A DNA stretch of 64,000 nt from Candidatus Omnitrophota bacterium. Its GTDB lineage: Bacteria; Omnitrophota; Gorgyraeia; Zapsychrales; JANLHA01. Shown here piece by piece: positions 7,148-44,965 of the stretch (positions are counted from its first letter, which is position 1; the number at the start of each line of letters is the position of its first letter). Under the pieces are notes generated by a model. The model did no database searches, was not told the DNA's origin, and saw only the letters and a program-made list of their open reading frames with translations. Both the position numbers and the translations under genes were made by a program. The stretch spans positions 2,010,662 to 2,074,661 of the forward strand of contig OY759724.1 in assembly GCA_963662715.1 (NCBI GenBank), read 5' to 3'.

Positions 7148-7247
7148 GAGCAGGGGAGAAACGGATTCAGGCCCTGTTGGTTGAGAAGAGGGGGGACAAG
7201 AGGGCTTTCAAAATTCTTATCGGTTGACTTTTCCGGGGAATTCCTCT

Positions 7248-28100: not shown

Positions 28101-29084
28101 ATGCTGAATCAAAAAGTCATTTTAGTTACCGGAGGGACAGGGTCGTTCGGAAAGAAGTTCACCGAGACGATACTTAAACAATTCAAGGTCAAGAAACTGA
28201 TCATCTTCAGCCGCGATGAGTATAAGCAGTTTGAGATGGCGAGGCTTTTTCCGGAAAAAAAATACCCTATCCGTTACTTTTTAGGAGATATTCGGGATAG
28301 AAACCGGCTTTACCGGGCCTTTGAAGGCGTTGATTACGTGGTCCACGCGGCCGCGCTCAAACAGGTCCCGGCTTTGGAATACAACCCGACCGAAGCGGTC
28401 AAAACAAATGTCAGCGGCGCTGATAATATTGTTAATGCGGCGATAGACGCCGGGGTTAAAAAAGTTGTCGCTTTGTCTACGGATAAGGCGGTGAACCCCA
28501 TCAACCTTTACGGGGCCACAAAACTGGTGGCTGAGAAAATATTCATCGCGGCCAATGCCTTTGCCGGAGGCCGGGTGAAATTCTCCGCGGTCCGGTACGG
28601 GAACGTCGTGGGCTCCCGGGGCAGCGTTATCCCGCTTTTTCTTCAATTGAAGAGCAAGGGATGCCATGAGTTTCCGCTCACTGATGAACGCATGACCCGT
28701 TTCTGGATTACTTTAGAGCAGGGCGTTAAACTGGTGATTAAAGCTCTGGACACATCAGAAGGCGGAGAAGTTTTTATCCCTAAAGTGCCTTCGATGAAGA
28801 TTGTTGATCTGGCCCGGGCGCTTGACCCGGCATGCCGGTTTAAGACGGTCGGCATCCGGCCGGGCGAAAAAGTCCATGAAACGTTGATTTCGATAGACGA
28901 ATCCCGCAACACCAAGATTGACGGGGATAATTACGTCATCCTTCCCCAGTTTTATGAAACGAAGGATGTCCACCGTCATTATGATAAATTGCCTCCTGTG
29001 CCCGAAGAGTTTTCCTATACGAGTGACAACAACCAGCAGTGGTTGACGGTTGAGCAGTTAAAGAAAATCATTTCAGAGCTCTGA
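28101..29084 (+). CDS. pseB: UDP-N-acetylglucosamine 4,6-dehydratase (inverting), PseB/FlaA1-like
   Basis: 'VILVTGGTGSFGKKF...LIIFSRDEYKQ...YFLGDIRDRNRL...YGATKL' is the PseB/CapD short-form signature. Confidence 0.8.
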   Translation: MLNQKVILVTGGTGSFGKKFTETILKQFKVKKLIIFSRDEYKQFEMARLFPEKKYPIRYFLGDIRDRNRLYRAFEGVDYVVHAAALKQVPALEYNPTEAVKTNVSGADNIVNAAIDAGVKKVVALSTDKAVNPINLYGATKLVAEKIFIAANAFAGGRVKFSAVRYGNVVGSRGSVIPLFLQLKSKGCHEFPLTDERMTRFWITLEQGVKLVIKALDTSEGGEVFIPKVPSMKIVDLARALDPACRFKTVGIRPGEKVHETLISIDESRNTKIDGDNYVILPQFYETKDVHRHYDKLPPVPEEFSYTSDNNQQWLTVEQLKKIISEL

Positions 29085-29090
29085 AGCGAT

Positions 29091-30536
29091 ATGAATGTAG
29101 CCTTTGTTTTCTCTTCTCAAAATGTTTTCTCTCCGGAGAAACCTTTACAATATCAGGAAGAAATGAATTTTGGTATTTCCTACATATCAGCATTTATAAA
29201 AAAACACGGGCATCAAACGCGGCTGTTTATAGTGACCAAAGACACAAAAATGAAGACTTTTCAGGAATTTGTAGACTCTTTTCAGCCTGAGGTTATCTGT
29301 TTTTCCAGCGTGACCAGCGAGTTCCCGTTTATAGTCCGCTGGATCAGAGATATCAAAGGATCCTACCCGCATATTTATTGTGTCGGAGGCGGCTGTCATA
29401 TAACCTTGAATCCTCATGACGGCCTGGAGACATCTCTGGACGCCCTTTGCATCGGAGAGGGGGAATGGCCGATCCTGGAACTTGTGGAGCAACTGGATCA
29501 GGGACGCATTCCGCAGGGAATAAGTAATTTATGGATTAAGCGGGACGGACAGGTTGAAAAGAACCGTATCCGTCCGTTTTTGGAAAACATTGATGATCTG
29601 CCGTTCCCGGACCGGGAGATGTGGCATCCCTGGACATTGGATCTGGACAGCCGGCCGGCGGTTCTTTTAGGCCGCGGATGTCCTTTTCAATGCACGTACT
29701 GTTCAAATCATGCCTTAAAGAAACTGGCATCAGGCACGTATGTCCGCTGCCGTTCCGCGGAGAATATTATTGCCGAACTCAAAGAGATCACGTCCCGGCA
29801 GCCTTCCGCCAGGGAGGTTTACTTTGAGGTGGAAACATTTAATGTGAATCTCCCCTGGGCTATCGGTTTGTGTGAAAGATTGGCAGAATTTAACCGGAAA
29901 AGGGACATCCCTCTGGAGTTTGGCGTGAACATCCGCGTCACGCCTAATACGGATTTTGCTTCGCTTTTTGCGGCCATGAAGAAGAGCCGGTTTTCTTTTA
30001 TCAATATCGGGGTCGAATCCGGCAGCGAACGGATCCGCCGGGATATTATGAAGCGGCGGTATTCCAACGACGATATTATGAAGACCGTTGCCCTGGCCCG
30101 GGAGCATGGATTAAAAGTGCATTTTTTGAACATGATCGGTCTCCCGACGGAAACAGAGGAGGATATCCGTCAGACGATTGCTGTTAACCGTGCCTGCCAG
30201 CCGGATATGTGGCCGTCCCATTCGATTTTTTTCCCGTACCCCGGGACAGAAATTCACCGTATGTGCCGGGAAATGAATTTATTGCCCCCCCAGATGGATG
30301 TCGAACGGGAACGCTCCCGGGCCGTGCTTAATCTGGACGGGTTGTCAAAAAGCAGAATTATGCATTATTTTGTCTGGTTTGACTATTATGTTTATAAAGG
30401 TCACCGCCCTTTATGGAAACTGCTGGCCCGGGTTTTTGTGGCCCGGCTGCATTGCTCGTACCGGTTGATGCGTATTTACCGGGGGCTGACCGAACGGGGC
30501 GTTCTTAAAAAATTGAAGGAGTTTCTCAAAAAATAA
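29091..30536 (+). CDS. B12-binding-domain radical SAM enzyme (copy 1)
   Basis: N-terminal cobalamin-binding Rossmann-like region, then 'LGRGCPFQCTYCSN', the CxxxCxxC radical-SAM cluster motif. Confidence 0.8.
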   Translation: MNVAFVFSSQNVFSPEKPLQYQEEMNFGISYISAFIKKHGHQTRLFIVTKDTKMKTFQEFVDSFQPEVICFSSVTSEFPFIVRWIRDIKGSYPHIYCVGGGCHITLNPHDGLETSLDALCIGEGEWPILELVEQLDQGRIPQGISNLWIKRDGQVEKNRIRPFLENIDDLPFPDREMWHPWTLDLDSRPAVLLGRGCPFQCTYCSNHALKKLASGTYVRCRSAENIIAELKEITSRQPSAREVYFEVETFNVNLPWAIGLCERLAEFNRKRDIPLEFGVNIRVTPNTDFASLFAAMKKSRFSFINIGVESGSERIRRDIMKRRYSNDDIMKTVALAREHGLKVHFLNMIGLPTETEEDIRQTIAVNRACQPDMWPSHSIFFPYPGTEIHRMCREMNLLPPQMDVERERSRAVLNLDGLSKSRIMHYFVWFDYYVYKGHRPLWKLLARVFVARLHCSYRLMRIYRGLTERGVLKKLKEFLKK

Positions 30537-30538
30537 AC

Positions 30539-31702
30539 ATGGCGAACGAAACCAAAAGAAAAGTTATCCCTTACGGACGGCAAAGCATTTCCCAGGAAGA
30601 TATCAAGGCTGTTGTAAATGTTTTGCGTTCGGACTGGATCACTCAAGGGCCCAGGATTCAGGAATTTGAAAAGGCGCTGTGCCGTTATACGGGAGCGAAA
30701 TACGCGGTTGCCGTGGCCAACGGAACCGCGGGCCTGCACCTGGCCTGTTTAGCGGCCGGAGTCGGCCCCGGAGATGAAGTCATCACATCCCCGATGACTT
30801 TTTTGGCTTCTGCCAATTGTGTTTTATATTGCGGAGGGACCCCGGTCTTTGCCGACATCCAGCCGGATACGGGGAATATCGACCCGGAGGAGATTGCTAA
30901 GAAAATCAGCGCAAGAACCAAAGCCGTTATTCCTGTACATTTTGCCGGCCATCCCTGTGATTTGAAAGAGATCCGTCGCATGGCCAGGAAGCACAAACTG
31001 GTTGTGATTGAAGATGCCTGCCATGCGTTAGGGGCTGAATACCAGGGGAAAAAGATCGGCGCCTGCCAGTATTCTGATATGACGGTCTTCAGCTTTCATC
31101 CGGTTAAGAGTATTACGACCGGGGAGGGAGGAGCCGTCTTAACGAATAATAAAAGGATGTATGAAAAACTTGTTCTATTGAGAAACCACGGGATGACGCG
31201 GGACAAGGCCAAAATTAAAAAGGGACAGGGGGACTGGTATTGCGAAATGCAGGCGTTGGGATTTAATTACCGTATCACCGATATCCAGTGCGCCTTGGGT
31301 ATAGGGCAGTTAAGCAGACTGGACCGGTTCCTGGCCAAAAGACGGCAGCTGGTTCAAGTCTATCAGAAGGCTTTGGCGGATACTTCGCACATTCAGCGTC
31401 CGGTTGAGCTCCCCGGGGGGCGTTCGGCCTGGCATATTTATCCCGTTTTTATTCACCCCTCAAGCCTGAAGCCTGTTGTTTTCAAGAAATTAAAGGCGGC
31501 CGGAATCAGACCGCAGGTTCATTATATGCCGGTTTACTGGCATCCTTATTATTATTCCCTGGGGTACAGAAAAGGGTTATGCCCCGGGGCAGAAGAATTT
31601 TATCGCGCGGAAATCACGGTCCCGTTGTATCCTTCGTTGAAATTACGTGAGGTTCATTATGTTGTCCGGACGTTAAAAGATATCTTGGAAGAGGTGAGGT
31701 AA
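30539..31702 (+). CDS. pseC: UDP-4-amino-4,6-dideoxy-N-acetyl-beta-L-altrosamine transaminase (DegT family)
   Basis: 'IPYGRQSISQEDIKAVVNVLRSDWITQGP' is the PseC N-terminal signature. PLP lysine in 'SFHPVKSITTGEGG'. Confidence 0.8.
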   Translation: MANETKRKVIPYGRQSISQEDIKAVVNVLRSDWITQGPRIQEFEKALCRYTGAKYAVAVANGTAGLHLACLAAGVGPGDEVITSPMTFLASANCVLYCGGTPVFADIQPDTGNIDPEEIAKKISARTKAVIPVHFAGHPCDLKEIRRMARKHKLVVIEDACHALGAEYQGKKIGACQYSDMTVFSFHPVKSITTGEGGAVLTNNKRMYEKLVLLRNHGMTRDKAKIKKGQGDWYCEMQALGFNYRITDIQCALGIGQLSRLDRFLAKRRQLVQVYQKALADTSHIQRPVELPGGRSAWHIYPVFIHPSSLKPVVFKKLKAAGIRPQVHYMPVYWHPYYYSLGYRKGLCPGAEEFYRAEITVPLYPSLKLREVHYVVRTLKDILEEVR

Positions 31703-32433
31703 TGAAAACAGTGGCTGTCATACAAGCCCGGATGAATTCTACCCGTCTGCCCGGGAAAGTCCTTATGGATATTGCCGGGCAGCCGATGCTGGCACATGTG
31801 GTCAGACGGTTGACACATAGCAGCCGGATTAATGAAATTGTCGTCGCTTTAACAACAGATACCGCTGATGATGTTGTGGAAATGTTTTGCCGGGACAGTA
31901 AAATCAAAATTTTTCGGGGGGAAAGTCATGACGTGTTGGACCGTTATTATCAAACAGCCCGATCTTTTCAGGCGGATTGTATCGTCCGGATCACCTCAGA
32001 CTGCCCTTTGATCGATCCTCAGGTCGTGGATCACGTTATCCGTGAATTCAAAGATACTTCCGCTGCTCTGGACGGGGCCACGAATTGTCTTCGCCGGACA
32101 TATCCTCGCGGACTCGACTGTGAAGTGTTCGGCTTTTCCGCCCTTGAGCGGTGCTGGAGACTGGCGGAGAAAGATTATTGCCGTGAGCATGTCACGATAT
32201 ATATGTATGAACATCCTGAGCTTTTTAAGATGAAAAATGTTGAATATAAGGAAGATTTGTCTTTTTACCGGTGGACCGTTGATGAAGAGCTTGATTTGAA
32301 ATTGGTGCGGGAGATTTATCTGAGACTGAGATCGGCAAAGGAGATGTTTTTTATGCAGGATATTCTGGAGGTGTTTGAAAGAGACCCGGCCCTTAAACAT
32401 ATCAACGAACATGTCCTTCAGAAACACGTTTAG
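31702..32433 (+). CDS. acylneuraminate cytidylyltransferase-family protein (PseF/SpsF-like CMP-sugar synthetase)
   Basis: 'AVIQARMNSTRLPGKVLMDIAGQPML' matches the cytidylyltransferase motif AR-x-x-S-x-R-x-x-x-K. Confidence 0.65.
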   Translation: MKTVAVIQARMNSTRLPGKVLMDIAGQPMLAHVVRRLTHSSRINEIVVALTTDTADDVVEMFCRDSKIKIFRGESHDVLDRYYQTARSFQADCIVRITSDCPLIDPQVVDHVIREFKDTSAALDGATNCLRRTYPRGLDCEVFGFSALERCWRLAEKDYCREHVTIYMYEHPELFKMKNVEYKEDLSFYRWTVDEELDLKLVREIYLRLRSAKEMFFMQDILEVFERDPALKHINEHVLQKHV

Positions 32434-32445
32434 AGAAATTTATTT

Positions 32446-33459
32446 ATGTCAGAACAGGTTTTGATTTTAACAGAAGGAGGAAAAGACGTCGGCCTGGGGC
32501 ATCTGTCCCGATGCTCCGCCTTGTACCAGGCTTTTGCGCAGAAGGGCGCTTCTCCGGTCCTGGTGGTTAACGGAGAAGAACATATCCTGGATTTTATCCC
32601 TGGTTTGCAATGCCATATTCAGCCCTGGCTGGACAAAGATGTCCTTTTGTCTTTATTGCAAGAAACGCCGGATATCGCGGTGGTCGATTCTTATTTAGCC
32701 GGGGAAGATCTTTATCAGATCATTGCGCGTAAGTGCAAGGTTGCCGTTTATATGGATGATAATAAACGTATGGATTATCCTCCGGGAATCGTGGTGAACA
32801 GCGCCGGAAACGCTGAGGCGTTGGGATATCCTCCCTGTCACGATAAGGTTTATTTGTTAACAGAAAAATATGCGTTGTTAAGAGCCCCGTTTTGGCAAGA
32901 CTCCCCCAGGAGAGCCGGACAGGCGCTTGAAACAATTTTGTTGACAATGGGTGGGAGTGACATGCGCAATCTGACTCCAAAGATTTTACAGGTTTTAACG
33001 CAGGAGTACCCGCAGGCGGAAAAGATTGTCATCGTGGGGCATGGGTTCAGCCGGCAGGAAACGATGTCATCATGGATCGATGATAGAACACAGATTGTAC
33101 AATCTCCAGATGCGGAAGCTCTGAGAGCCTTGATGCTTCAGGCGGATATGGCTGTTTCCGCTGGCGGGCAGACATTATACGAACTGACACGGTGCGGGGT
33201 TCCGGCTTGTGTCGTATGTGTCGCGGATAATCAGGCGTCGCATATCTCCTGGTTTCAAGAGAAAGGTCTGGTAAAGGATTGCGGACGGTATGATGCTTCT
33301 AACCTATCAGCGCGTGTGCGGCAGGCCTTAGGAGAATTGGCTGATGAGGAGCTTCGCAGCCGGATTTCGGCGGCAGGCAGAAAGATTGTCGACGGCCGGG
33401 GCGCGTTACGCCTCGTGGACGAAATATTAAAATATTTGCCTCTGCAACAGCATTATTGA
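32446..33459 (+). CDS. pseG: PseG-like UDP-2,4-diacetamido-2,4,6-trideoxy-L-altropyranose hydrolase (GT28-C-like)
   Basis: 'VLILTEGGKDVGLGHLSRCSAL' and a GT-B C-terminal pattern. Position in a pse cluster. Confidence 0.6.
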   Translation: MSEQVLILTEGGKDVGLGHLSRCSALYQAFAQKGASPVLVVNGEEHILDFIPGLQCHIQPWLDKDVLLSLLQETPDIAVVDSYLAGEDLYQIIARKCKVAVYMDDNKRMDYPPGIVVNSAGNAEALGYPPCHDKVYLLTEKYALLRAPFWQDSPRRAGQALETILLTMGGSDMRNLTPKILQVLTQEYPQAEKIVIVGHGFSRQETMSSWIDDRTQIVQSPDAEALRALMLQADMAVSAGGQTLYELTRCGVPACVVCVADNQASHISWFQEKGLVKDCGRYDASNLSARVRQALGELADEELRSRISAAGRKIVDGRGALRLVDEILKYLPLQQHY

Positions 33460-33488: not shown

Positions 33489-34130
33489 ATGGAAAAAGTC
33501 AAGATAGCTATATATGGCGCTTCCTTAGGGGGTGAGACCGTTAAAGAATGTCTTGCTCTGGAAGATACCTGTGATATTGCTTGTTTCCTGGATGATGACC
33601 CCCGGAAGTCGGGAATGGAATTTTGCGGTTTACCTATCCGGTCCTCGGATGATCTGGAGAAATTAAGCGCAGAGGGCGTGTCCCGGGTTGCCCTGGCCGT
33701 TGCCAATGCCTCGAAGAGACTGGAACTCCGGGGCCGGCTCATGGCATGCCGCCTGGAGCCGATGAATGTGATACATCCGCGCACTTATATAGCCCCGTCT
33801 GTAAAGATCGGGAAAGGAAACTATATTAAAGCCGGCGCGGTTATTGAGACAAATAGCACTGTTGGTGATTGCTGTATTATCGATAACGGTGTCATTGTCG
33901 CTCATGACAATGTCATTGAAGACGCCTGTCATCTTGCACCGGGTGTCGTTTTGGGAAGCAGTATTGTGGTCGGATCAGGGAGCATTATCGGAATAGGGGC
34001 CAGTATATCAACAAAGATCCGTATCGGAAAAAATGTGATTGTCAGCGTGGGAACCAGTGTCACCAGAGACGTTCCGGATAACAGTATTGTAGAAGGCGTT
34101 CCGGGAAAAATCATTGGAAGACGAAAATAA
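33489..34130 (+). CDS. NeuD/PglD-family sugar O-/N-acetyltransferase (hexapeptide LbH)
   Basis: N-terminal Rossmann-like 'IAIYGASLGGETV', then hexapeptide repeats 'IGKGNYIKAGAVIETNSTVGDCCIIDNGVIVAHDNVI'. Confidence 0.7.
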   Translation: MEKVKIAIYGASLGGETVKECLALEDTCDIACFLDDDPRKSGMEFCGLPIRSSDDLEKLSAEGVSRVALAVANASKRLELRGRLMACRLEPMNVIHPRTYIAPSVKIGKGNYIKAGAVIETNSTVGDCCIIDNGVIVAHDNVIEDACHLAPGVVLGSSIVVGSGSIIGIGASISTKIRIGKNVIVSVGTSVTRDVPDNSIVEGVPGKIIGRRK

Positions 34131-34186: not shown

Positions 34187-35104
34187 ATGATGAAAACAGA
34201 AGTGTTGTATGAAAAGATGTTGTTAATAAGGCTCTTCGAGGAGCAGGTGGGTCTTTTGTTTACCCGGGGAGATTTATTCGGGACGACACACGCCTGTATC
34301 GGGCAGGAAGCCGTTGCTGTGGGTGTTACGCAGGGGCTCCATCAAGATGATATCATCACGAGCAATCACCGCGGCCACGGCCATTATATTGCTTTCACCG
34401 GAGATGTCGAAGGCCTGCTGGCGGAACTGATGGGCAAAAAGACCGGAGTTTGCGCCGGTCGCAGCGGCAGCCAGCATTTGTGTTATAAAAATTTCTTTTC
34501 CAACGGAATAACCGGAGGCATGATCCCGGTGGCAACGGGCATGGCTTTGGCGGAAAAGAAAAAGAAGAGCGGAAAAATCGTTGTTTGTTTCTTGGGAGAC
34601 GGTGCCTTGGGAGAAGGCCCGCTTTATGAGTCTTTGAACATGGCCTCTTTATGGGGGCTGCCGATTATTTTTGTTGTTGAGAATAACAGTTATGCCATGA
34701 GCACGCATATTTCCGAGGCCGTGGCCGGAAAGATTTTAGAGCGCGGGAAAGCCTTCTCGATCAAAACAGAAGAGTTTTATACTCAGGATGCCGGGAAAAT
34801 TTTCTCCGGGTTTGAAAAAATTATCAGCCATGTCCGGACACAGGTTCAGCCGTATTTTTGTCTTTTTCATACATACCGGTTTTGCGGGCACAGCAAGAGC
34901 GATGATTGCTGTTACCGCGATAAGAATGAAGAACTGGAATGGCGTAAGAAAGATCCGCTGCTTATTTTAGAACAGCGTTTAGAGCCGCAAACCGTAAAAA
35001 GGATTCAGGAAAAATGCCGCCGTCAAATTGAGGAAGCTTTAAGCCAGGCGGCGGAAGCTCCCTTTCCTGACCCGGCTTGCTTGTCTCAGGGATTATGGGG
35101 TTGA
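34187..35104 (+). CDS. TPP-dependent 2-oxoacid dehydrogenase E1 component, alpha subunit
   Basis: 'ITSNHRGHGHYIA' and the TPP-binding 'GDGALGEG...NN'. Confidence 0.8.
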   Translation: MMKTEVLYEKMLLIRLFEEQVGLLFTRGDLFGTTHACIGQEAVAVGVTQGLHQDDIITSNHRGHGHYIAFTGDVEGLLAELMGKKTGVCAGRSGSQHLCYKNFFSNGITGGMIPVATGMALAEKKKKSGKIVVCFLGDGALGEGPLYESLNMASLWGLPIIFVVENNSYAMSTHISEAVAGKILERGKAFSIKTEEFYTQDAGKIFSGFEKIISHVRTQVQPYFCLFHTYRFCGHSKSDDCCYRDKNEELEWRKKDPLLILEQRLEPQTVKRIQEKCRRQIEEALSQAAEAPFPDPACLSQGLWG

Positions 35105-35113
35105 GGAAGATGT

Positions 35114-36127
35114 ATGAAAACATTTGCGCAATCGATTAATACCGCGTTGGAGGAAAAATTAGCTGAAGATCCCCGGGTGCTTTTGCTGGGCGAAGATCTC
35201 CGGGATCCTTACGGCGGTGCCTTTAAAATCACAAAAGGACTGTCTTCCCGGTATCCGGACCGGGTTCTCAACACGCCGATGAGCGAGTTTTCATTAGCCG
35301 GAGTGGCTGCGGGGCTGGCCATACGGGGTTTGCGGCCGGTCTTGGAGATCATGTTCGGTGATTTTATGACATTTTGCGCGGATCAGCTGATCAACCATGC
35401 CGTGAAGTTTCGCTGGATGTACAACGGACAAGTGGATGTCCCGCTTGTGATCCGGACTCCCATGGGAGGGGGACGCGGTTACGGTCCGACCCACAGCCAG
35501 TCTCTGGAGAAGATTTTTATGGGCATTCCGGGGCTGAAGATCATTGCTGCGAGTCATTTTCATGATGCCGGGACATTGTTAAAAGACGCTATTGATGACG
35601 ACAATCCGGTTTTATTTATAGAACATAAACTTTTATATCCCCGTAAGATCGGCCAGCCGGTGGACGGTTACATTTCGGACTTTGCCGTTAAATTTTCTGA
35701 CGGCAGGTATAAAACATTGAGATTATCTAACACGGACTTTGACGATCCTCAGCTTACGGTGCTTGTTTATGGCGGAATGTTGCCTTGGGTGACAGAGGCT
35801 GTTAATGAACTGCTCGTTGAAGAGGAGGTCGGAGCGGAGATTGTTGTCCCGAGTTATATTAACCAATCTTTCATCCCGGAGATGATGGAATCCGTTAAGA
35901 CAACAGGGAGGCTGGTGATTGTGGAAGAAGGGACTCTGTCGTTCGGCTGGGGGGCAGAAATGGCCGCCAGGATTGTGACACATGAAAGCATAGGGTCCTT
36001 GAAGGCGCCTGTCAGGCGGGTGGCCGCGAAAGATCTGCCTTTGGCGAATTCACGTGTTTTAGAAGAAGCCACATTGCCGCAGGTCAGGGATATCAAAAAG
36101 GCTGTTCAGGAGGTCTTAGCGTCATGA
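35114..36127 (+). CDS. 2-oxoacid dehydrogenase E1 component, beta subunit (transketolase-like C-terminal)
   Basis: 'VLLLGEDL...GGAFKITKGL...RVLNTPMSE' and the overall E1-beta pattern. Confidence 0.8.
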   Translation: MKTFAQSINTALEEKLAEDPRVLLLGEDLRDPYGGAFKITKGLSSRYPDRVLNTPMSEFSLAGVAAGLAIRGLRPVLEIMFGDFMTFCADQLINHAVKFRWMYNGQVDVPLVIRTPMGGGRGYGPTHSQSLEKIFMGIPGLKIIAASHFHDAGTLLKDAIDDDNPVLFIEHKLLYPRKIGQPVDGYISDFAVKFSDGRYKTLRLSNTDFDDPQLTVLVYGGMLPWVTEAVNELLVEEEVGAEIVVPSYINQSFIPEMMESVKTTGRLVIVEEGTLSFGWGAEMAARIVTHESIGSLKAPVRRVAAKDLPLANSRVLEEATLPQVRDIKKAVQEVLAS

Positions 36128-36561
36128 TACACGATATCCTTGTGCCGCAGTTGGGCGTTAATGATGAGTTCGTCACCATTGTTGAGTGGCGTGTTAACGA
36201 CGGGGACAAAGTTGAGGTTGGGACGCCGTTATGCATCATTGAGACAACGAAGGCGGTCGTAGACCTGTTAGCTGAAAATCCCGGGGTTATCGTCAGGATA
36301 CGCTGTGAAAAGGAGCGGGTAGCCATAAAAGATCTTTTGGGATACATCGGCGATTCTTGGGAGGAGATCCAGCGCCTTATCCCGGAGAAACAGGCGACCG
36401 GAAAAAAGTCTGTGGGCGGCGAAGCCGATATTAAAGCCACGCAGAAAGCCCGGGCCCTGGCTGAATCCCTGGGAGTGGATATCGGTCTGATTCTTAAGAA
36501 AGGGATCATCCGCGAAAAGGATGTGCAGGAATTTTATGCTTCCCGGCAAAAGGAATTTTAA
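36124..36561 (+). CDS. stand-alone lipoyl/biotinyl carrier domain protein with a peripheral-subunit-binding domain (E2 lacking the acyltransferase catalytic domain)
   Basis: 'GTPLCIIETTKAVVDL' carries the lipoyl-Lys in a TTKA context. 'TQKARALAESLGVDIGLI' is a PSBD. There is no C-terminal CAT domain. Confidence 0.7.
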   Translation: MIHDILVPQLGVNDEFVTIVEWRVNDGDKVEVGTPLCIIETTKAVVDLLAENPGVIVRIRCEKERVAIKDLLGYIGDSWEEIQRLIPEKQATGKKSVGGEADIKATQKARALAESLGVDIGLILKKGIIREKDVQEFYASRQKEF

Positions 36562-36562
36562 G

Positions 36563-37618
36563 GTGAAAAGGACGAACGAGACAACCGGAAAAAGATTTTT
36601 TCACGAGGATAATTCGGTCTTTATTATCGCGGAGGTCTCTGCTAATCATGGGCAGGATTTTAAGCGGGCCGTCCAAATGATCAAGACGGCCAAAAAGTGC
36701 GGCGCGGATGCCGTGAAATTTCAGGCGTACACTCCTGATACGATGACGATGGACGTCAACACCCGTTATTTTCAGGTCCGTCATGCTCAATGGAGCGGAC
36801 AGTCTTTGTATCAGCTGTATCAAAAGGCGTATACGCCTTTTGCATGGTTTAAGAAATTGAAAAAAGTGGCTGATGATATCGGTATTTTGTTTTTTGCCAC
36901 GGCGTTTGATAAAACGGCCGTTGATTTGCTGGAAGAAATCCGGGTGCCGGTACACAAGATTGCATCGTTTGAACTTAACGACATCCCTTTGATCCGGTAC
37001 ATGGCCAGGACGAAGAAGCCGCTGATATTATCCACGGGGATGGCAACGCTGGCTGAGATTCAGGCGGCCGTTGATGCCGCCTGTCAAAACGGAACCCGTG
37101 ATATATCTTTACTAAAATGTGTCAGTGATTACCCGGCTTCCCCGGAAGAGATGAATTTAGCGACCATCCCGGATATGAAAAAAAGATTTCCTGCCGTTAT
37201 CGGCCTTTCGGACCATTCTTTGGGCATAGGGGTGTCTGTGGCCGGAGTATCGTTAGGGGCGAAGATTATTGAAAAGCATTTTACCCTTTCAAGAAAGCAC
37301 AGGACGGCAGACAACTTTTTTTCCCTGGAGCCGGACGAGTTAAAGGATCTGGTGGATAATATACGGGTGGTAGAAAAGGCTGTGGGGCAGATTCATTACG
37401 GATTGACCAAAAAGGAAAAGGCGAGCCGAATTTACCGGCGTTCGTTGTTTGCGGTTCAGGATATTCGGAAAGGGGAGAAGCTGACCGAGCACAATGTGAG
37501 GTCGATCAGGCCTGCTTACGGTCTGGACCCCGAGGCTATCGACGAGGTGCTGGACAAAACGGCCAGCAGGCATATCCGGAAAGGGGTTCCTTTAAGATGG
37601 GACATGATTGAAACATGA
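36563..37618 (+). CDS. pseI: pseudaminic acid synthase / NeuB-family nonulosonate synthase with C-terminal SAF domain
   Basis: 'VFIIAEVSANHGQDFKRAVQMIKTAKKCGADAVKFQ' plus a C-terminal SAF region 'VAVQDIRKGEKLTEHNVRSIRP'. GTG start at 36563 has an AAAGGAA SD; the ORF track begins at ATG 36521. Confidence 0.8.
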   Translation: MKRTNETTGKRFFHEDNSVFIIAEVSANHGQDFKRAVQMIKTAKKCGADAVKFQAYTPDTMTMDVNTRYFQVRHAQWSGQSLYQLYQKAYTPFAWFKKLKKVADDIGILFFATAFDKTAVDLLEEIRVPVHKIASFELNDIPLIRYMARTKKPLILSTGMATLAEIQAAVDAACQNGTRDISLLKCVSDYPASPEEMNLATIPDMKKRFPAVIGLSDHSLGIGVSVAGVSLGAKIIEKHFTLSRKHRTADNFFSLEPDELKDLVDNIRVVEKAVGQIHYGLTKKEKASRIYRRSLFAVQDIRKGEKLTEHNVRSIRPAYGLDPEAIDEVLDKTASRHIRKGVPLRWDMIET

Positions 37619-38580
37619 TTTCACTGAAAAATAAACATCAGAATCAGCGTGCTCTTGTCATTTTCGGAGGGCCTTCTATTGTCGCGAACCGGTATCCTCT
37701 GCAGAGCATTGACAAAAGCCGGTATACGGTCTTCCTGGAATCAAAGGCTTTAACGCCGTATTTCTTGAAATCAGGCCTGGTCCCGGATTATTATTTAATG
37801 TTTTTCCTTGAGAAATGCAAGTCGAATGCGTTCCAACACGTGGTTTTCCAGTCGTTCCTGGCCGACATAAAATTGGATGACCTGCTCCGGGAACAATTCC
37901 TGGCAGAGTATCACTTTATGAAAGATCATTTTGACATGTTCTTTGAGCCTTTCCGGCCGCATAAAGGCCCGCATAAGAAATACCGCTATAGACCCGATGT
38001 GTTCCTGAAAAACAGTCCTTTGGATCTGCTGGCAAATTTTCCCGGGGTGGCAGGGCTGTCTATAGAAAGTAATTTCCAGGACTACGCCGGAAGTTTTTCT
38101 TATCAGAATCCGGTCCATAAATTTCATGTCAGGAAAGCGGAAAAGCAGTTTGATCTTGATGATTATTTTCATGTTGATGACGAGGGCGACATCCCGTCTC
38201 TTAAAGATTACAGTTTCTTAAACTCGGCGGCGATAGCCTTGTTCCCCATCCTGAAGTATCTGGGATTCGACAGTGTTTTTTTTCTGGGGATGGATATGTC
38301 CATGCTGGGGAGCATGGAGTTTGCCGCCTGCTATACTTTTAAATCCATGAAGCATTATGAAAAATTTTTCAAAAAGGCGCAACGGGTTTTCAATGCTTCG
38401 TTCAGGGAGAATAAGAGAAAATTCATGCGTCCGCCTTATGACTTTGAGGCGGTAGAGCAAATTCTCTCTTACCGGGGAATGACATTTCTCAATATCTATG
38501 AACCATTTGAATATGCGATGCCTGTGCCGGGTATTCGCAGTATCTCATTTAAGGAATTTCTTAATGGAACAGTCCAATAA
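37615..38580 (+). CDS. hypothetical protein, possibly a DUF115/MptE-like (Maf/PseE-like nonulosonate transferase) domain
   Basis: 'ALVIFGGPSIV' and 'VFFLGMDMS' resemble the DUF115 motifs of motility-accessory-factor glycosyltransferases. Confidence 0.35.
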   Translation: MISLKNKHQNQRALVIFGGPSIVANRYPLQSIDKSRYTVFLESKALTPYFLKSGLVPDYYLMFFLEKCKSNAFQHVVFQSFLADIKLDDLLREQFLAEYHFMKDHFDMFFEPFRPHKGPHKKYRYRPDVFLKNSPLDLLANFPGVAGLSIESNFQDYAGSFSYQNPVHKFHVRKAEKQFDLDDYFHVDDEGDIPSLKDYSFLNSAAIALFPILKYLGFDSVFFLGMDMSMLGSMEFAACYTFKSMKHYEKFFKKAQRVFNASFRENKRKFMRPPYDFEAVEQILSYRGMTFLNIYEPFEYAMPVPGIRSISFKEFLNGTVQ

Positions 38581-39247
38581 TCATTCGGTTGGCGTTTTTT
38601 CTTTCGCAAGGGTGCAAAGCGAACGATGTTCGCAGAAAATGATCCGCCCCTTTGGCGACACGACATTAACTGATATCGTTCTGAAGAAATTGAGGGAAAT
38701 CGGGCCGGACACCTTTTTCGCCGGCTACGAAAAGGTGTTCGCCGATAAATGTCAGGAGGCCGGGGTCTCTTTTGTCCGCCGGAGTGAGCACTCTGTTCAT
38801 ATCGATGGTCCTATTACTGAAATCCTCTCATTTCTGAAAGACCTCCCGTATGATTACTTTCTGATCATCAATGCCTGTCTGCCCTTTCTGCCGGTCCGGA
38901 CCATTAAGGATTTTCTGCAGTACTGTCAGCAGGATTTTCGTCCCGTCTTTGCTGTTATAAAAAGGCATAATTTTTATTTTGATCATAAACAGCAGCCGCT
39001 TAATTTCAATTTATCTTTAAAAACGATCAACACAAAAACCGTGACCCCGGTGTTTGAATTTGCTCACGCGTTATATTTTTTTAAAAAAGACTATTTTTTT
39101 GAAACGGGACGCTACTGGGACTGGCAGGAAGTGCGCCTGTTTGAACTGCAGAGCAAATTGGAATTGTTCGACATTGATACGGAGGAAGATTTTTTGATAG
39201 CAGAGGGAATGAGGAGAACTTATGAAAGTCGTATTCTTGGTTCATAG
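38564..39247 (+). CDS. second cytidylyltransferase-like protein (divergent NeuA/PseF family)
   Basis: 'VFSFARVQSERCSQKMIRPFGDTTL' fits the AR-x-x-S-x-R-x-x-x-K-x(n)-G-x-x-L pattern. Start at the internal Met 'MEQSNNH'. Confidence 0.45.
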   Translation: MEQSNNHSVGVFSFARVQSERCSQKMIRPFGDTTLTDIVLKKLREIGPDTFFAGYEKVFADKCQEAGVSFVRRSEHSVHIDGPITEILSFLKDLPYDYFLIINACLPFLPVRTIKDFLQYCQQDFRPVFAVIKRHNFYFDHKQQPLNFNLSLKTINTKTVTPVFEFAHALYFFKKDYFFETGRYWDWQEVRLFELQSKLELFDIDTEEDFLIAEGMRRTYESRILGS

Positions 39248-42493: not shown

Positions 42494-42543
42494 CGGCATT
42501 GGGAACGATTTTTTGATTGGCCTTATCAAGCAAGGAGGGGCAC

Positions 42544-43317
42544 ATGAAGGTTGTTATTCTGGCCGGGGGGCTTGGTTCGCGGTTAAGTGAGGAAACCTAT
42601 TTGAAACCCAAGCCGATGATTGATGTCGGGGGCCGGCCGATTCTTTGGCATATTATGAAGTTTTATTCCAGTTACGGGTTTAACGATTTTGTTATCTGCC
42701 TGGGGTATAAGGGATATATGATTAAAGAATATTTCGCGAATTATTTCCTTCATGAAACGGATGTGACCATTGATTTGAACTTTAATAATATGCTGTTTCA
42801 CGATTCGAAAGCCGAACCCTGGAAGATCACTCTGGTGGATACCGGCCTGGATACCATGACCGGGGGAAGAATCAAACGCATACGGAATCATATCGATAAT
42901 ACAACATTTATGCTGACATACGGCGACGGCCTGGGGGATGTTCCTCTGAAAGAATTGCTGTCCTTCCATCAGTCGCACAAAAAGATGGCCACGCTCACAG
43001 CCGTACAGCCTATCGGACGCTTCGGTGCTTTGGACATGGCCGGCCAGGCCGTTAAGTCTTTTATTGAAAAGCCTAAAGGGGACGGGGGATGGATCAACGG
43101 CGGGTTTTTTGTCCTGGAACCGAAAGTTTTTGATTATATTGAAAATGACCAGTCTATCTGGGAAAAAAAACCGCTGGAAGCCATTGCCGCCGAACGGCAG
43201 CTGAATGCCTATCAGCATACAGGTTTTTGGAAGCCCATGGACACTCTTCGGGATAAAAGGGAGCTGGAAGAGTTATGGAATACCGGCAAAGCTCCCTGGA
43301 AAGTTTGGAATGATTAA
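42544..43317 (+). CDS. rfbF: glucose-1-phosphate cytidylyltransferase
   Basis: 'MKVVILAGGLGSRLSEETYLKPKPMIDVGGRPILWHIM' is nearly the canonical RfbF/DdhA N-terminus. Confidence 0.85.
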   Translation: MKVVILAGGLGSRLSEETYLKPKPMIDVGGRPILWHIMKFYSSYGFNDFVICLGYKGYMIKEYFANYFLHETDVTIDLNFNNMLFHDSKAEPWKITLVDTGLDTMTGGRIKRIRNHIDNTTFMLTYGDGLGDVPLKELLSFHQSHKKMATLTAVQPIGRFGALDMAGQAVKSFIEKPKGDGGWINGGFFVLEPKVFDYIENDQSIWEKKPLEAIAAERQLNAYQHTGFWKPMDTLRDKRELEELWNTGKAPWKVWND

Positions 43318-44407
43318 TTCGTTTAACAATATTTACCGCGGAAAGAAGGTCCTTATCACCGGGCATACGGGTTTTAAAGGGTCCTGGTTAAGTCTTTGGC
43401 TGAGAGAATTGGGGGCGGATATTGTCGGTTATGCTTTGGCCCCTGCCACGCAGCCGAACCATTTTGAGCTTTTAGACCTGGATATGGTTTCTGTCATTGA
43501 CGATATCCGTCATCAGGAGAGCCTTGCAGCCGTTTTCGCTCAACACCGGCCGGAAATGGTTTTCCATATGGCCGCCCAGTCCCTTGTCCGGTATTCCTAT
43601 CCCCACCCGGCGGAGACCTTTGAAACAAACGTTATGGGAACGGTACATGTTCTGGAAGCCGTAAGGCGGTGCGCTTCGGTTAAGGCGATTGTGAATGTGA
43701 CCAGCGATAAGTGCTATGATAATAAAGAGTGGGTCTGGGGATACCGGGAAACAGATCCTTTGGGGGGATATGATCCTTACAGCGCTTCCAAAGGGTGTGC
43801 GGAAATCGTTACAAACGCTTATCGCAATTCTTTCTTCCCCCTTCACCGGTATGGAGAGGAGCATCATGTTCTGCTGGCCAGCGTCCGAGCCGGAAATGTT
43901 ATCGGGGGAGGGGACTGGGCCGAGGACAGGCTTGTCCCGGACATCATGCGGGCAGTGGCAGACCATAAACAAGCTGTGATCAGAAATCCTCAGGCGACAC
44001 GTCCCTGGCAGCATGTTTTGGATCCTTTAAGCGGGTATCTTTTGCTGGGACAGCAGTTGCTCGAGGGGCGGAAAGAGTTTGCCGAAGCCTGGAACTTCGG
44101 ACCGGCCGATGACGCTGTTCTGACCGTAGAGGATGTTGTTCTTGCGGCCCGTTCTTCCTGGGACAGGATATCTTTGAAAATGAATGGCCCGGAAGAACAA
44201 CCTCACGAGGCGCATGATTTGAAGCTGGACTGTTCCAAAGCGCACCGTAAACTTCAATGGCAGGGGCTGTGGGAGACCTCCCGGGCGATACAGCAGACGG
44301 TTGAGTGGTATAGGGCTTATTTTGAAGACAAGACAATACTGAGTCGTGAACAGTTGAAATCCTATATGAATTCGGGCAGGCAGAAGAAAGCTGTGTGGGG
44401 GGAATAA
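43310..44407 (+). CDS. rfbG: CDP-glucose 4,6-dehydratase
   Basis: 'KKVLITGHTGFKGSWLSLWL' and 'YSASKGCAE' are the RfbG/DdhB signatures. Start at the internal Met 'MINSF', overlapping the rfbF stop. Confidence 0.85.
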   Translation: MINSFNNIYRGKKVLITGHTGFKGSWLSLWLRELGADIVGYALAPATQPNHFELLDLDMVSVIDDIRHQESLAAVFAQHRPEMVFHMAAQSLVRYSYPHPAETFETNVMGTVHVLEAVRRCASVKAIVNVTSDKCYDNKEWVWGYRETDPLGGYDPYSASKGCAEIVTNAYRNSFFPLHRYGEEHHVLLASVRAGNVIGGGDWAEDRLVPDIMRAVADHKQAVIRNPQATRPWQHVLDPLSGYLLLGQQLLEGRKEFAEAWNFGPADDAVLTVEDVVLAARSSWDRISLKMNGPEEQPHEAHDLKLDCSKAHRKLQWQGLWETSRAIQQTVEWYRAYFEDKTILSREQLKSYMNSGRQKKAVWGE

Positions 44408-44965
44408 ATGCAATTTTCTGAAACTAGAATTCCCGGTGTTTATATCATTGAGCCCAGGGTTTTTACGGATGAGCGCGGGGCTTTCATCAAGATTTTTCAT
44501 AAAGAAGAGTTTCAGAATCACGGCCTGGCATGCGAATTTAAGGAGTCATTTTACTCGATCTCCCAAAAGGGCGTTATCCGGGGCATGCATTTTCAGACCC
44601 CGCCGCATGAACATGCCAAATTGATTTATGTGACCCGGGAAGCCATCAGGGACGTTATTGTCGATATCCGCCGCGGATCGCCGGCCTACGGGGAATATGT
44701 TTCGGTTGAACTGTCTGAAGAAAACCGGAAGATGCTTTATGTCCCGGCAGGCTGTGCTCATGGTTTTTCCGCTTTGCAGGACGGCGCCTGTGTGATTTAC
44801 TCGCTGACGTCGGTCTATGCCGAGGATCATGATAAGGGCATCCGCTACGATTCATTCGGTTTTGACTGGGGGAGGATTGAAGCTCCCATCGTGTCTTTAA
44901 GAGACCAGGGGTTCCCTCCTTTGAAAGATTTTCAGTCCCCTTTCCGGTACGGGGGATCATCATGA
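44408..44965 (+). CDS. RfbC-family cupin sugar-nucleotide 3,5-(or 5-)epimerase
   Basis: 'IPGVYIIEPRVFTDERGAFIKIF...RGMHFQ...KLIYV' matches the dTDP-4-dehydrorhamnose 3,5-epimerase fold. Confidence 0.75.
   Translation: MQFSETRIPGVYIIEPRVFTDERGAFIKIFHKEEFQNHGLACEFKESFYSISQKGVIRGMHFQTPPHEHAKLIYVTREAIRDVIVDIRRGSPAYGEYVSVELSEENRKMLYVPAGCAHGFSALQDGACVIYSLTSVYAEDHDKGIRYDSFGFDWGRIEAPIVSLRDQGFPPLKDFQSPFRYGGSS

What the first reader, a model, noticed from the sequence alone, without database searches (positions are those of the whole stretch)
34187..36561. Pyruvate-dehydrogenase-type E1 alpha/beta plus an orphan lipoyl carrier embedded between the Pse acetyltransferase and PseI
Seen in sequence: a TPP-dependent E1 alpha (305 aa), an E1 beta (337 aa) and a 145-aa protein. 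The third consists only of a lipoyl domain ('IETTKAV') and a peripheral-subunit-binding domain, with no E2 catalytic domain and no E3. All three are translationally coupled inside the pse operon.

Established knowledge: E1 transfers an acyl or hydroxyalkyl unit from a 2-oxoacid onto lipoamide.

Inference: an acyl-lipoyl carrier donates an unusual N-acyl or two-carbon group to the 4-amino or 7-amino position of the nonulosonate precursor. Possible groups are hydroxy-acyl or glyceroyl-like. Alternatively it builds a C-branched sugar. This use of a lipoyl shuttle in glycan tailoring is rarely, if ever, characterised.
Basis: partly seen in the sequence, partly recalled or inferred. Interest (0 to 1): 0.7.

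Follow-up and report, generated by a model that had tools for sequence, protein, structure and literature searches.

The report
Lipoyl-arm sugar N-acylation module
Inside a pseudaminic-acid sugar operon sits a cut-down pyruvate-dehydrogenase-like machine that most likely makes an acyl group on a lipoyl swinging arm and passes it straight to an amino sugar instead of to coenzyme A; this arrangement is widespread in bacteria, and I found no paper describing it.

Summary
Window 34187-36561 encodes a TPP-dependent E1 alpha, an E1 beta and a 145-aa carrier made of a lipoyl domain plus a peripheral-subunit-binding domain (PSBD). They lie between a NeuD/PglD-type left-handed beta-helix (LbH) acyltransferase and PseI. 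The 64-kb window has no E2 catalytic domain, E3, lipoate ligase or PseH.

The decisive evidence is comparative. In most relatives the same lipoyl+PSBD unit is fused to the N-terminus of the LbH acyltransferase, next to E1 alpha/beta. About 98 of the 112 closest LbH homologues are such fusions. Of 91 loci carrying an E1 beta relative, 48 are fused, 3 are split like the window, and 25 have a classical E2.

Sugar aminotransferase and NeuB genes accompany only the LbH type. The carrier plus LbH therefore act as a split E2 analogue: E1 acylates the lipoyl arm, and the LbH enzyme moves the acyl to the 4-amino group of the UDP-sugar (N7 of Pse), replacing PseH.

The acyl group is unresolved: acetyl from pyruvate, or a non-acetyl group such as glycolyl. 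No paper describing this was found. The module is not specific to pse clusters.

The parts
28101..29084 (+). PseB-type UDP-GlcNAc 4,6-dehydratase/5-epimerase (first pathway step)
   Evidence: PF02719 Polysacc_synt_2, 334 bits
29091..30536 (+). B12-binding radical SAM enzyme inserted between PseB and PseC; role in the pathway unknown (possible methylation)
   Evidence: PF02310 plus PF04055. Homologues occur in related cluster L002.
30539..31702 (+). PseC aminotransferase; makes the UDP-4-amino-4,6-dideoxy sugar that is the proposed acyl acceptor
   Evidence: TIGR03588 PseC 523.8 bits, cutoff 423.5
31702..32433 (+). Cytidylyltransferase (probable CMP-nonulosonate synthetase)
   Evidence: PF02348 CTP_transf_3 E=2.9e-32. 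The PseF model scores only weakly.
32446..33459 (+). PseG-like UDP-sugar hydrolase
   Evidence: TIGR03590 PseG 132.6 bits, below its 153.55 cutoff. Homologues are present in L002 and L006.
33489..34130 (+). NeuD/PglB/VioB-family left-handed beta-helix (LbH) N-acyltransferase. Proposed catalytic half of a split E2 analogue, taking the PseH step.
   Evidence: TIGR03570 177.2 bits, cutoff 160.8. Nearest solved structure is PerB, and His139 aligns with PerB His141. About 98 of its 112 closest homologues carry an N-terminal lipoyl domain. 45 of the top 63 representatives are 355-383 aa with an N-terminal extension.
34187..35104 (+). TPP-dependent E1 alpha subunit
   Evidence: PF00676 E=2.5e-56. Nearest solved structure is human PDH E1 alpha, 154 bits; TPP motif and GHS histidine conserved.
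35114..36127 (+). E1 beta subunit
   Evidence: PF02779 plus PF02780. Relatives at 50-69% identity lie in glycan clusters. The PMSE and HSQ motifs are visible in the translation and lie within the region aligned to solved E1 beta structures.
36124..36561 (+). Free-standing lipoyl + PSBD carrier (swinging arm), lipoyl-Lys43
   Evidence: PF00364. Lys43 aligned to known lipoyl lysines and invariant. PSBD profile hit 1w4i E=1e-5. AlphaFold pLDDT 90.8. Foldseek matches E2 lipoyl+PSBD. Collinear with the N-terminal 150 aa of the fused proteins.
36563..37618 (+). PseI pseudaminic acid synthase. The start may instead be the ATG at 36521, overlapping the carrier gene.
   Evidence: TIGR03586 453 bits, cutoff 340.25; NeuB plus SAF domains

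Best explanation
The LbH acyltransferase, E1 alpha/beta and the lipoyl+PSBD carrier form a coenzyme-A-independent acylation module. It is a miniature 2-oxoacid-dehydrogenase-type system whose E2 catalytic core is a sugar N-acyltransferase.

Proposed steps, all inferred:
1. E1 alpha2beta2 uses TPP to decarboxylate a small 2-oxoacid, or to cleave an alpha-hydroxyketone. It then reductively acylates the lipoyl-Lys43 of the carrier, which docks on E1 through its PSBD.
2. The S-acyl-dihydrolipoyl arm enters the active site of the LbH enzyme (trimeric by analogy with known LbH transferases). His139 activates the 4-amino group of UDP-4-amino-4,6-dideoxy-beta-L-AltNAc, made by PseB and PseC, and the acyl group is transferred. 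This replaces the missing PseH.
3. PseG, PseI and the cytidylyltransferase finish a CMP-Pse5Ac7(acyl).
4. The reduced arm is re-oxidised by a dihydrolipoamide dehydrogenase encoded elsewhere.

The acyl group is not determined. It may be acetyl from pyruvate (about 45%). It may be a non-acetyl short acyl such as glycolyl or propionyl (about 55%). The non-acetyl view rests on the neighbouring de-N-acetylases in sister clusters.

What is shown: domain content, the conserved lipoyl Lys and catalytic residues, the gene fusions and the synteny.
For: 1. Rosetta-stone fusions. Lipoyl+PSBD is fused to the NeuD-type LbH domain directly beside E1 alpha/beta in L002, L003, L007, L088, L089 and L090. The window's carrier and LbH protein are collinear with the N- and C-terminal parts of these fusions.

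2. The window LbH belongs to a clade defined by this fusion. About 98 of 112 homologues at 44-66% identity carry PF00364, after which scores drop sharply to ordinary NeuD/PglD at 38% identity or less. An exhaustive search agrees.

3. Tally of 91 loci: 48 fused, 3 split, 25 classical E2, 15 undetermined. DegT occurs in 23/51 LbH-type loci against 0/25 classical (Fisher p=1.3e-5). NeuB occurs in 11/51 against 0/25 (p=0.013).

4. A lipoate-protein ligase gene sits between E1 alpha and E1 beta in L002.

5. Lys43 is invariant. The PSBD is retained.

6. Catalytic residues. In E1, the TPP motif and the alpha-subunit His are conserved in the alignment to human PDH E1 alpha; the PMSE Glu and HSQ His of E1 beta are visible in the translation. 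The LbH catalytic His is conserved.

7. The window has no PseH, E2 catalytic domain or E3.

8. Precedent for E1 plus lipoyl delivering an acyl group to a non-CoA acceptor: QncN/L/M and SclQ1-4 (PMC6335953).

9. De-N-acetylases lie adjacent to the module in L004, L006, L014 and L090 (PIG-L) and in L005 (CE4). This argues for a non-acetyl acyl group.
Against: - There is no biochemical evidence anywhere.
- No E3 is encoded in the window or in any of the ten annotated neighbourhoods, so re-oxidation of the arm is unexplained. An E3 motif scan of 87 loci found none, but it also found none beside the classical E2 loci, so that scan is uninformative.
- No structure or docking shows that a lipoyl-lysine arm fits the CoA tunnel of an LbH transferase.
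- E1 is most similar to pyruvate dehydrogenase E1. The product may therefore be ordinary Pse5Ac7Ac, which would make the purpose of the system unclear.
- The E1 beta phylogeny is a simple neighbour-joining tree without support values.
- The loci are not phylogenetically independent, so the Fisher p-values overstate significance.
Confidence: 0.65

Rival explanations
1. Same architecture, but a trivial product. E1 uses pyruvate, the arm carries acetyl, and the module is only an acetyl-CoA-independent substitute for PseH, giving ordinary Pse5Ac7Ac.
For: E1 alpha scores best against pyruvate dehydrogenase models and structures: TIGR03182 286 bits, and human PDH E1 alpha 154 bits against 109 for BCKDH. 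The window itself has no de-N-acetylase next to the module.
Against: The E1 alpha score is well below the PDH equivalog cutoff of 394 bits. De-N-acetylases sit next to the module in five sister loci, which would be futile if the new acyl were acetyl. Maintaining three extra genes plus a lipoylation requirement to do what a single GNAT does with abundant acetyl-CoA is hard to rationalise. E1 beta is equidistant from PDH and BCKDH.
Confidence: 0.3
2. E1 alpha/beta is a carboligase or transketolase-like enzyme that attaches a two-carbon branch to a keto-sugar intermediate, as proposed for E1-like pairs in branched-sugar antibiotic pathways. The lipoyl protein would be only an accessory.
For: From my own knowledge, E1-like alpha/beta pairs occur in pathways for two-carbon-branched deoxysugars (avilamycin and aldgamycin type). 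The PseB product is a 4-keto sugar. This was not tested here.
Against: This reading gives no role to the recurrent fusion of the lipoyl+PSBD unit to an N-acyltransferase. The alpha-subunit His and the beta-subunit HSQ His, which in classical E1s serve lipoamide acylation (my own knowledge), are retained. PseC (aminotransferase) consumes the 4-keto group, and PseI expects the normal hexose. A lipoate ligase is present in cluster L002.
Confidence: 0.04
3. The trio is a stray or decaying fragment of a catabolic acetoin/pyruvate/branched-chain dehydrogenase operon that landed in the glycan island and has no role there.
For: Annotation pipelines name relatives 'acetoin dehydrogenase' or 'alpha-ketoacid dehydrogenase subunit beta'. 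The best NCBIfam hit of the carrier is the acetoin E2.
Against: The reading frames are intact and tightly coupled. The same gene set recurs beside NeuB/DegT genes in many phyla, including Saganbacteria, Omnitrophota, Magnetococcales, Azospirillum and Gammaproteobacteria. No E2 catalytic domain or E3 lies within 64 kb. The carrier ends after the PSBD in three independent split loci and is fused to LbH in 48.
Confidence: 0.01

Closest known systems
2-oxoacid dehydrogenase complexes with heterotetrameric E1 (pyruvate, branched-chain and acetoin dehydrogenase complexes)
   Same: TPP-dependent E1 alpha/beta with conserved catalytic residues. A lipoyl domain with the modifiable Lys, followed by a linker and a PSBD, exactly as in the N-terminal half of E2. 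The predicted chemistry of reductive acylation of lipoamide is the same.
   Different: The CAT-like E2 catalytic domain (PF00198) is absent. A left-handed beta-helix sugar N-acyltransferase replaces it: a separate gene here, fused in most relatives. The predicted acceptor is a nucleotide-linked amino sugar, not CoA. No E3 is encoded nearby. The genomic context is glycan biosynthesis, not catabolism.
QncN/QncL/QncM (quinocarcin, naphthyridinomycin) and SclQ1-4 (scleric acid) glycolyl-unit systems (PMC6335953)
   Same: A dedicated E1-like TPP enzyme plus a lipoyl arm inside a biosynthetic cluster, supplying an acyl unit to a non-CoA acceptor. SclQ2 and SclQ3 are 305 and 338 aa, essentially the sizes of the window's E1 alpha (305 aa) and E1 beta (337 aa).
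   Different: Those systems keep a classical E2 acyltransferase domain and hand the unit to an ACP for an NRPS. Here there is no ACP and no E2 domain, and the transferase is an LbH sugar N-acyltransferase.
NeuD/PglB/VioB-family sugar N-acetyltransferases (PglD, PerB, VioB)
   Same: The window LbH protein passes the family model. It has the PglD_N nucleotide-sugar-binding domain plus the hexapeptide helix, and it keeps the His aligned with PerB His141. The acceptor position (a 4-amino-4,6-dideoxy sugar) is the same as for PglD and PerB.
   Different: Characterised members use acetyl-CoA. This clade is defined by fusion or adjacency to a lipoyl+PSBD arm and E1 alpha/beta, implying a protein-bound acyl donor.
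Canonical pseudaminic acid pathway (PseB, C, H, G, I, F)
   Same: PseB, PseC, PseG-like, PseI and a cytidylyltransferase are present in one operon, in nearly canonical order.
   Different: The GNAT PseH is missing. In its place are the LbH transferase plus the E1 alpha/beta and carrier genes. A B12 radical SAM gene is inserted between PseB and PseC.

Membership tests
Classical 2-oxoacid dehydrogenase complex (PDH/BCKDH/acetoin DH) | TPP-dependent E1 alpha/beta with TPP-binding motif and catalytic His/Glu residues | tested here: met
   PF00676, PF02779 and PF02780. GDG...ENN and GHSKSD aligned to human PDH E1 alpha. PMSE and HSQ motifs in E1 beta.
Classical 2-oxoacid dehydrogenase complex (PDH/BCKDH/acetoin DH) | E2 with lipoyl domain, PSBD and a CAT-like catalytic acyltransferase domain | tested here: not met
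   The lipoyl domain and PSBD are present. The protein ends at residue 145, and no 2-oxoacid_dh catalytic domain was found in any window ORF.
Classical 2-oxoacid dehydrogenase complex (PDH/BCKDH/acetoin DH) | Dihydrolipoamide dehydrogenase (E3) partner | tested here: inconclusive
   No Pyr_redox-type E3 lies in the 64-kb window or in the ten annotated neighbourhoods. The rest of the genome could not be examined.
Classical 2-oxoacid dehydrogenase complex (PDH/BCKDH/acetoin DH) | Lipoylated lysine on the carrier | tested here: met
   Sequence level only. Lys43 aligns with the lipoyl Lys of E3BP and E2 and is invariant in 40 homologues. A lipoate ligase gene lies in sister cluster L002. Actual lipoylation cannot be tested with these tools.
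NeuD/PglB/VioB sugar N-acyltransferase family | Family HMM above curated cutoff, with PglD_N plus hexapeptide architecture | tested here: met
   TIGR03570 177.2 bits against cutoff 160.8. PF17836 plus PF00132.
NeuD/PglB/VioB sugar N-acyltransferase family | Catalytic histidine | tested here: met
   His139 aligns with PerB His141, the residue replaced in mutant structures 4eaa and 4eab.
NeuD/PglB/VioB sugar N-acyltransferase family | Acetyl-CoA as acyl donor | not testable with these tools
   Comparative evidence points to a lipoyl-bound donor instead. This needs an enzyme assay.
Pseudaminic acid biosynthesis operon | PseB, PseC and PseI equivalogs | tested here: met
   PseC 523.8 bits (cutoff 423.5) and PseI 453 bits (cutoff 340). 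PseB-type Polysacc_synt_2 334 bits.
Pseudaminic acid biosynthesis operon | PseH GNAT N-acetyltransferase | tested here: not met
   No GNAT domain in any window ORF of 90 aa or more.
Pseudaminic acid biosynthesis operon | PseG and PseF equivalogs | tested here: inconclusive
   PseG model 132.6 bits, below cutoff 153.55. The cytidylyltransferase matches CTP_transf_3 but only weakly matches PseF.
QncN/L/M-type glycolyl-ACP system | E1-like enzyme, lipoyl-E2 with classical catalytic domain, and a dedicated ACP | tested here: not met
   No ACP or E2 catalytic domain lies in the operon. Only the E1 and the lipoyl arm are shared.

The most novel reading that the evidence does not exclude
This may be a previously unrecognised, phylogenetically widespread class of swinging-arm acyltransferase complex. 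A trimeric left-handed beta-helix transferase replaces the E2 core. It acylates nucleotide amino sugars directly from S-acyl-dihydrolipoyl groups generated in situ by a dedicated E1. That would let bacteria install acyl groups that do not exist as CoA thioesters, for example N-glycolyl made from hydroxypyruvate or a ketose phosphate. It would be a bacterial route to N-glycolyl or other unusual N-acyl nonulosonic acids.
Probability: 0.35. Interest if true: 0.85.

Novelty: new variant of a known kind. Interest (0 to 1): 0.75.

Why it matters
Lipoyl swinging arms are textbook parts of only a handful of central-metabolic complexes. A version whose catalytic core is a sugar N-acyltransferase would be a new use of the cofactor. 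It would also parallel the two chloramphenicol acetyltransferase folds, with a CAT-like core swapped for an LbH core.

It would explain how some bacteria decorate sialic-acid-like surface sugars. The enzymes that set the N-acyl groups of pseudaminic and legionaminic acids are largely unknown (PMC5378307). These groups determine antigenicity and recognition by phage and immune systems.

The module occurs in cultured bacteria: Azospirillum fermentarium, Aliidiomarina celeris, Rheinheimera nanhaiensis and Neolewinella marina. The hypothesis is therefore directly testable. The fusion proteins are currently annotated only as 'NeuD family acetyltransferase' or 'biotin/lipoyl attachment protein'.

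Tried and rejected
- Exact-sequence look-ups of the window's own carrier and E1 beta to identify the source record found nothing. Cluster look-up gave no name or accession for them. The source genome was also absent from the species-representative scan, where the best hit was 54% identical. The organism therefore stays unidentified: a Gram-negative-type chromosome with RodZ, MlaE, AsmA and MetH, at about 47% GC.
- tblastn of a fused protein against plasmids gave no match.
- Literature searches combining lipoyl with nonulosonic, pseudaminic, NeuD, hexapeptide or O-antigen found nothing relevant. The 'lipoylation' in PMC4875605 means fatty-acylation. Mentions of pyruvate dehydrogenase in two genome papers concern central metabolism.
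- My recollection that the Legionella LPS locus contains PDH-like genes was not borne out by PMC3766260.
- One literature search ('lipo' plus legionaminic) was wasted on lipopolysaccharide hits.
- A regex scan for the E3 redox-disulfide motif found none in any locus. It also found none beside classical E2 loci, so it says nothing either way.
- The substrate of E1 could not be inferred. E1 alpha leans towards PDH, while E1 beta is equidistant from PDH and BCKDH.
- The stray-catabolic-fragment and C-branching readings were rejected for the reasons given under rival explanations.
Full report
**What is in the window**

Coordinates 34187-36561 hold three intact plus-strand genes.
- A 305-aa E1 alpha: PF00676, E=2.5e-56.
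- A 337-aa E1 beta: Transket_pyr plus Transketolase_C.
- A 145-aa protein with a lipoyl domain: PF00364, E=1.2e-12.

NCBIfam places the E1 subunits nearest to pyruvate dehydrogenase E1, but well below the equivalog cutoffs (286 against 394 bits; 231 against 321 bits).

E1 alpha retains the GDG...ENN thiamine-diphosphate motif and the GHSxSD histidine when aligned with human PDH E1 alpha. E1 beta retains the PMSE glutamate and the HSQ histidine.

E1 alpha and E1 beta are separated by 9 nt. E1 beta and the carrier overlap by ATGA. The carrier's stop abuts or overlaps the PseI start.

**The carrier**

Lys43 in IETTKAV aligns with the lipoyl-lysine of human E3BP (IETDKAV) and of bacterial E2.

Pfam did not call a PSBD. 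I therefore built a profile from the C-terminal segment of 29 homologues. It hits solved E2 PSBDs, best 1w4i at E=1e-5, with a loop three residues shorter.

An AlphaFold model (pLDDT 90.8) shows a beta-barrel at 1-76, a helix, a disordered linker at 94-105, and two helices at 107-116 and 131-144. Foldseek's top matches are the lipoyl+PSBD portions of E2 models, followed by isolated lipoyl domains at 1.5-1.9 A rmsd.

**Context in the window**

Upstream, in order, lie the following:
- PseB (28101-29084).
- A B12 radical SAM enzyme.
- PseC (TIGR03588, 524 bits).
- A cytidylyltransferase.
- A PseG-like gene.
- A NeuD/PglB/VioB-family left-handed beta-helix (LbH) acyltransferase (33489-34130; TIGR03570, 177 bits, above cutoff).

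Downstream is PseI (TIGR03586, 453 bits).

I scanned every ORF of 90 aa or more in the 64-kb window against Pfam. None has an E2 catalytic domain, an E3, a lipoate ligase or a PseH-type GNAT. The LbH enzyme is therefore the only candidate for the PseH step.

The window starts with housekeeping genes of a diderm bacterium (RodZ, MetH, MlaE/D, AsmA). From about 23 kb to its end it is a glycan island rich in radical SAM enzymes and methyltransferases.

**The decisive comparative evidence**

The free-standing carrier is rare. Only one non-identical homologue was found by the word-indexed search.

E1 beta has many relatives at 50-69% identity, and their neighbourhoods are informative.
- In L002 (Saganbacteria-like) and L003, a 359-365-aa protein combining lipoyl, PSBD, PglD_N and hexapeptide domains lies directly upstream of E1 alpha/E1 beta and next to NeuB.
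- L002 also has a lipoate-protein ligase gene between E1 alpha and E1 beta.
- L004 has the same split layout as the window: LbH, E1 alpha, E1 beta, 155-aa carrier, NeuB.
- L005-L007 and L088-L090 repeat the theme. L088 is from a cultured Azospirillum fermentarium.

Searching with the window's LbH protein gave the mirror image. Of about 112 homologues at 44-66% identity, about 98 carry an N-terminal PF00364 domain and are 355-373 aa long. Scores then fall abruptly to ordinary NeuD/PglD proteins at 38% identity or less.

An exhaustive HMMER scan of 1.84 billion representatives agrees. 45 of the top 63 are 355-383 aa, with the match confined to the C-terminal two-thirds.

The N-terminal 150 residues of the fusions are collinear with the window's carrier (PQLGVNDEF...IETxKA...KATxKARxLA...GIIREKDV). 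Lys43 and Glu40 are invariant across 40 sequences.

**Wider distribution**

A scan of one genome per species returned 80 loci with E1 beta relatives at 37-54% identity. I called ORFs in all loci and searched them with the window's proteins and with domain probes taken from the loci.

Of 91 loci including the window:
- 48 have a lipoyl-LbH fusion. There are two LbH subtypes, NeuD-like and WcaF-like.
- 3 are split (the window, L004 and L006).
- 25 have a classical lipoyl-E2.
- 15 are undetermined, mostly truncated contigs.

A DegT-type sugar aminotransferase occurs in 23 of the 51 LbH-type loci and in none of the 25 classical ones (Fisher p=1.3e-5). NeuB occurs in 11 of 51 against 0 of 25 (p=0.013). 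These p-values ignore shared ancestry.

In a neighbour-joining tree of E1 beta, partner type is coherent within clades, and the window groups with L001-L006.

The hosts span Chloroflexota, Actinomycetota, Acidobacteriota, Planctomycetota, Omnitrophota, Alpha- and Gammaproteobacteria and Bacteroidota.

So the module is a general amino-sugar acylation cassette. The window's subclade has recruited it into nonulosonate operons. It is not specific to pse genes.

**Mechanism (inferred)**

The carrier plus the LbH enzyme equal a split E2 analogue.
- E1 generates an acyl group on the lipoyl arm, which the PSBD holds on E1.
- The arm delivers the acyl group to the LbH transferase.
- That enzyme's closest solved relative is the 4-amino-sugar N-acetyltransferase PerB. 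Its His139 aligns with PerB His141, the residue mutated in structures 4eaa and 4eab.
- The acceptor is the PseC product. The acyl group ends up on N7 of pseudaminic acid, and the missing PseH is explained.
- LbH transferases are trimers (established knowledge), as are E2 catalytic cores, so the fusion proteins would form a three-armed mini-complex.

A precedent for E1 plus a lipoyl arm feeding a biosynthetic, non-CoA acceptor exists in the QncN/L/M and SclQ1-4 systems. These make a glycolyl unit from a ketose phosphate (PMC6335953). SclQ2 and SclQ3 (305 and 338 aa) match the sizes of the window's subunits. That is a lead, not a test.

**Which acyl group?**

This is unresolved.
- E1 alpha is closest to PDH E1 alpha (154 bits, against 109 for Thermus BCKDH).
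- E1 beta is equidistant from PDH and BCKDH.
- In favour of a non-acetyl group: de-N-acetylases sit immediately beside the module in five sister loci. These are PIG-L in L004, L006, L014 and L090, and CE4 in L005.
- L090 has one E1 pair, two lipoyl-LbH proteins and a PIG-L between them. That is the layout expected if both amino groups receive a new acyl group after removal of the original acetyl.
- The window itself has no adjacent deacetylase.

I put acetyl at about 45% and a non-acetyl short acyl (glycolyl, propionyl or similar) at about 55%.

**Open problems**

No E3 is encoded near any copy, so re-oxidation of dihydrolipoyl depends on a gene elsewhere or on an unknown oxidant. Whether a lipoyl-lysine arm fits the donor tunnel of an LbH enzyme is untested.

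**Literature and novelty**

No paper in the searchable library links lipoyl domains with nonulosonic, pseudaminic or NeuD-type chemistry. The Tannerella work states that enzymes modifying nonulosonate N-acyl groups are largely unknown. No curated NCBIfam model reached its cutoff beyond the generic NeuD/PglB/VioB subfamily, so none names the fusion as such.

I rate this a new variant of a known kind: a 2-oxoacid-dehydrogenase-type swinging-arm system with a different catalytic core and acceptor. The alternatives of a C-branched sugar or a misplaced catabolic fragment are not.

Noticed in passing
window 29091-30536, 51906-53333, 57248-58765 (B12-binding radical SAM); 50793-51872 (radical SAM/SPASM); 55927-57228 (radical SAM): The glycan island carries five radical SAM enzymes, three with B12-binding domains. 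One is wedged between PseB and PseC. Related cluster L002 also has three B12 radical SAM genes. This suggests C-methylation or other radical tailoring of the sugars.
   Followed up: partly
window 42517-46576: There is a second sugar pathway: a nucleotidyltransferase, a 4,6-dehydratase-like gene, an RmlC-like 3,5-epimerase, a reductase/epimerase, and then a short NeuB-family protein (242 aa) that lacks the SAF domain. It may be a second ulosonic-acid synthase or a truncated one.
   Followed up: no
window 37615-38580 and 38498-39247: Directly after PseI lies a 321-aa protein with only a weak MptE/Maf-like match, possibly a motility-accessory-factor-type nonulosonate transferase. It is followed by a second, divergent cytidylyltransferase-like gene that overlaps it.
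   Followed up: no
L002 9406-10026: A lipoate-protein ligase (LplA-B_cat) gene is inserted between E1 alpha and E1 beta in a Saganbacteria-like cluster. This implies the host needs a dedicated lipoylation enzyme for this module.
   Followed up: partly
L090 5848-11107; also L004 7752-8429, L006 3096-3761, L014 12563-13231, L005 12897-13901: De-N-acetylases (PIG-L family, or CE4 in L005) sit beside the lipoyl-LbH genes. L090 has one E1 pair but two lipoyl-LbH proteins (WcaF-type 504 aa and NeuD-type 368 aa) flanking a PIG-L. This suggests replacement of both N-acetyl groups.
   Followed up: partly
L008, L011, L012, L014, L035, L055, L064-L073, L078, L082, L085: A second class of fusion pairs lipoyl+PSBD with a WcaF/maltose-acetyltransferase-type LbH domain and a further C-terminal region of about 100 aa with no family assignment (400-533 aa in total). 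It is common in Actinomycetota, Planctomycetota and Acidobacteriota. These may be O-acyltransferases rather than N-acyltransferases.
   Followed up: partly
L003 11613-15022; L002 13475-20580; L089 14105-17623: Sister clusters carry further acyl-supply genes next to the module: FkbH-like, MaoC-dehydratase/ketoreductase, AMP-ligase, small ACP-like ORFs, and PdxA/inositol-phosphatase-like genes. This indicates additional unusual substituents on the same nonulosonate.
   Followed up: no
L016, L027-L031, L033, L036 and many Bacteroidota loci: In many relatives E1 alpha and E1 beta are fused into one polypeptide of about 650 aa. This occurs both with classical E2 partners and with lipoyl-LbH partners.
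   Followed up: no
window 7224-10952 and 21866-22735: A cobalamin-dependent methionine synthase (MetH, 1242 aa) and a methylenetetrahydrofolate reductase flank the start of the glycan island. This fits a B12- and SAM-hungry locus, but it may be coincidence.
   Followed up: no
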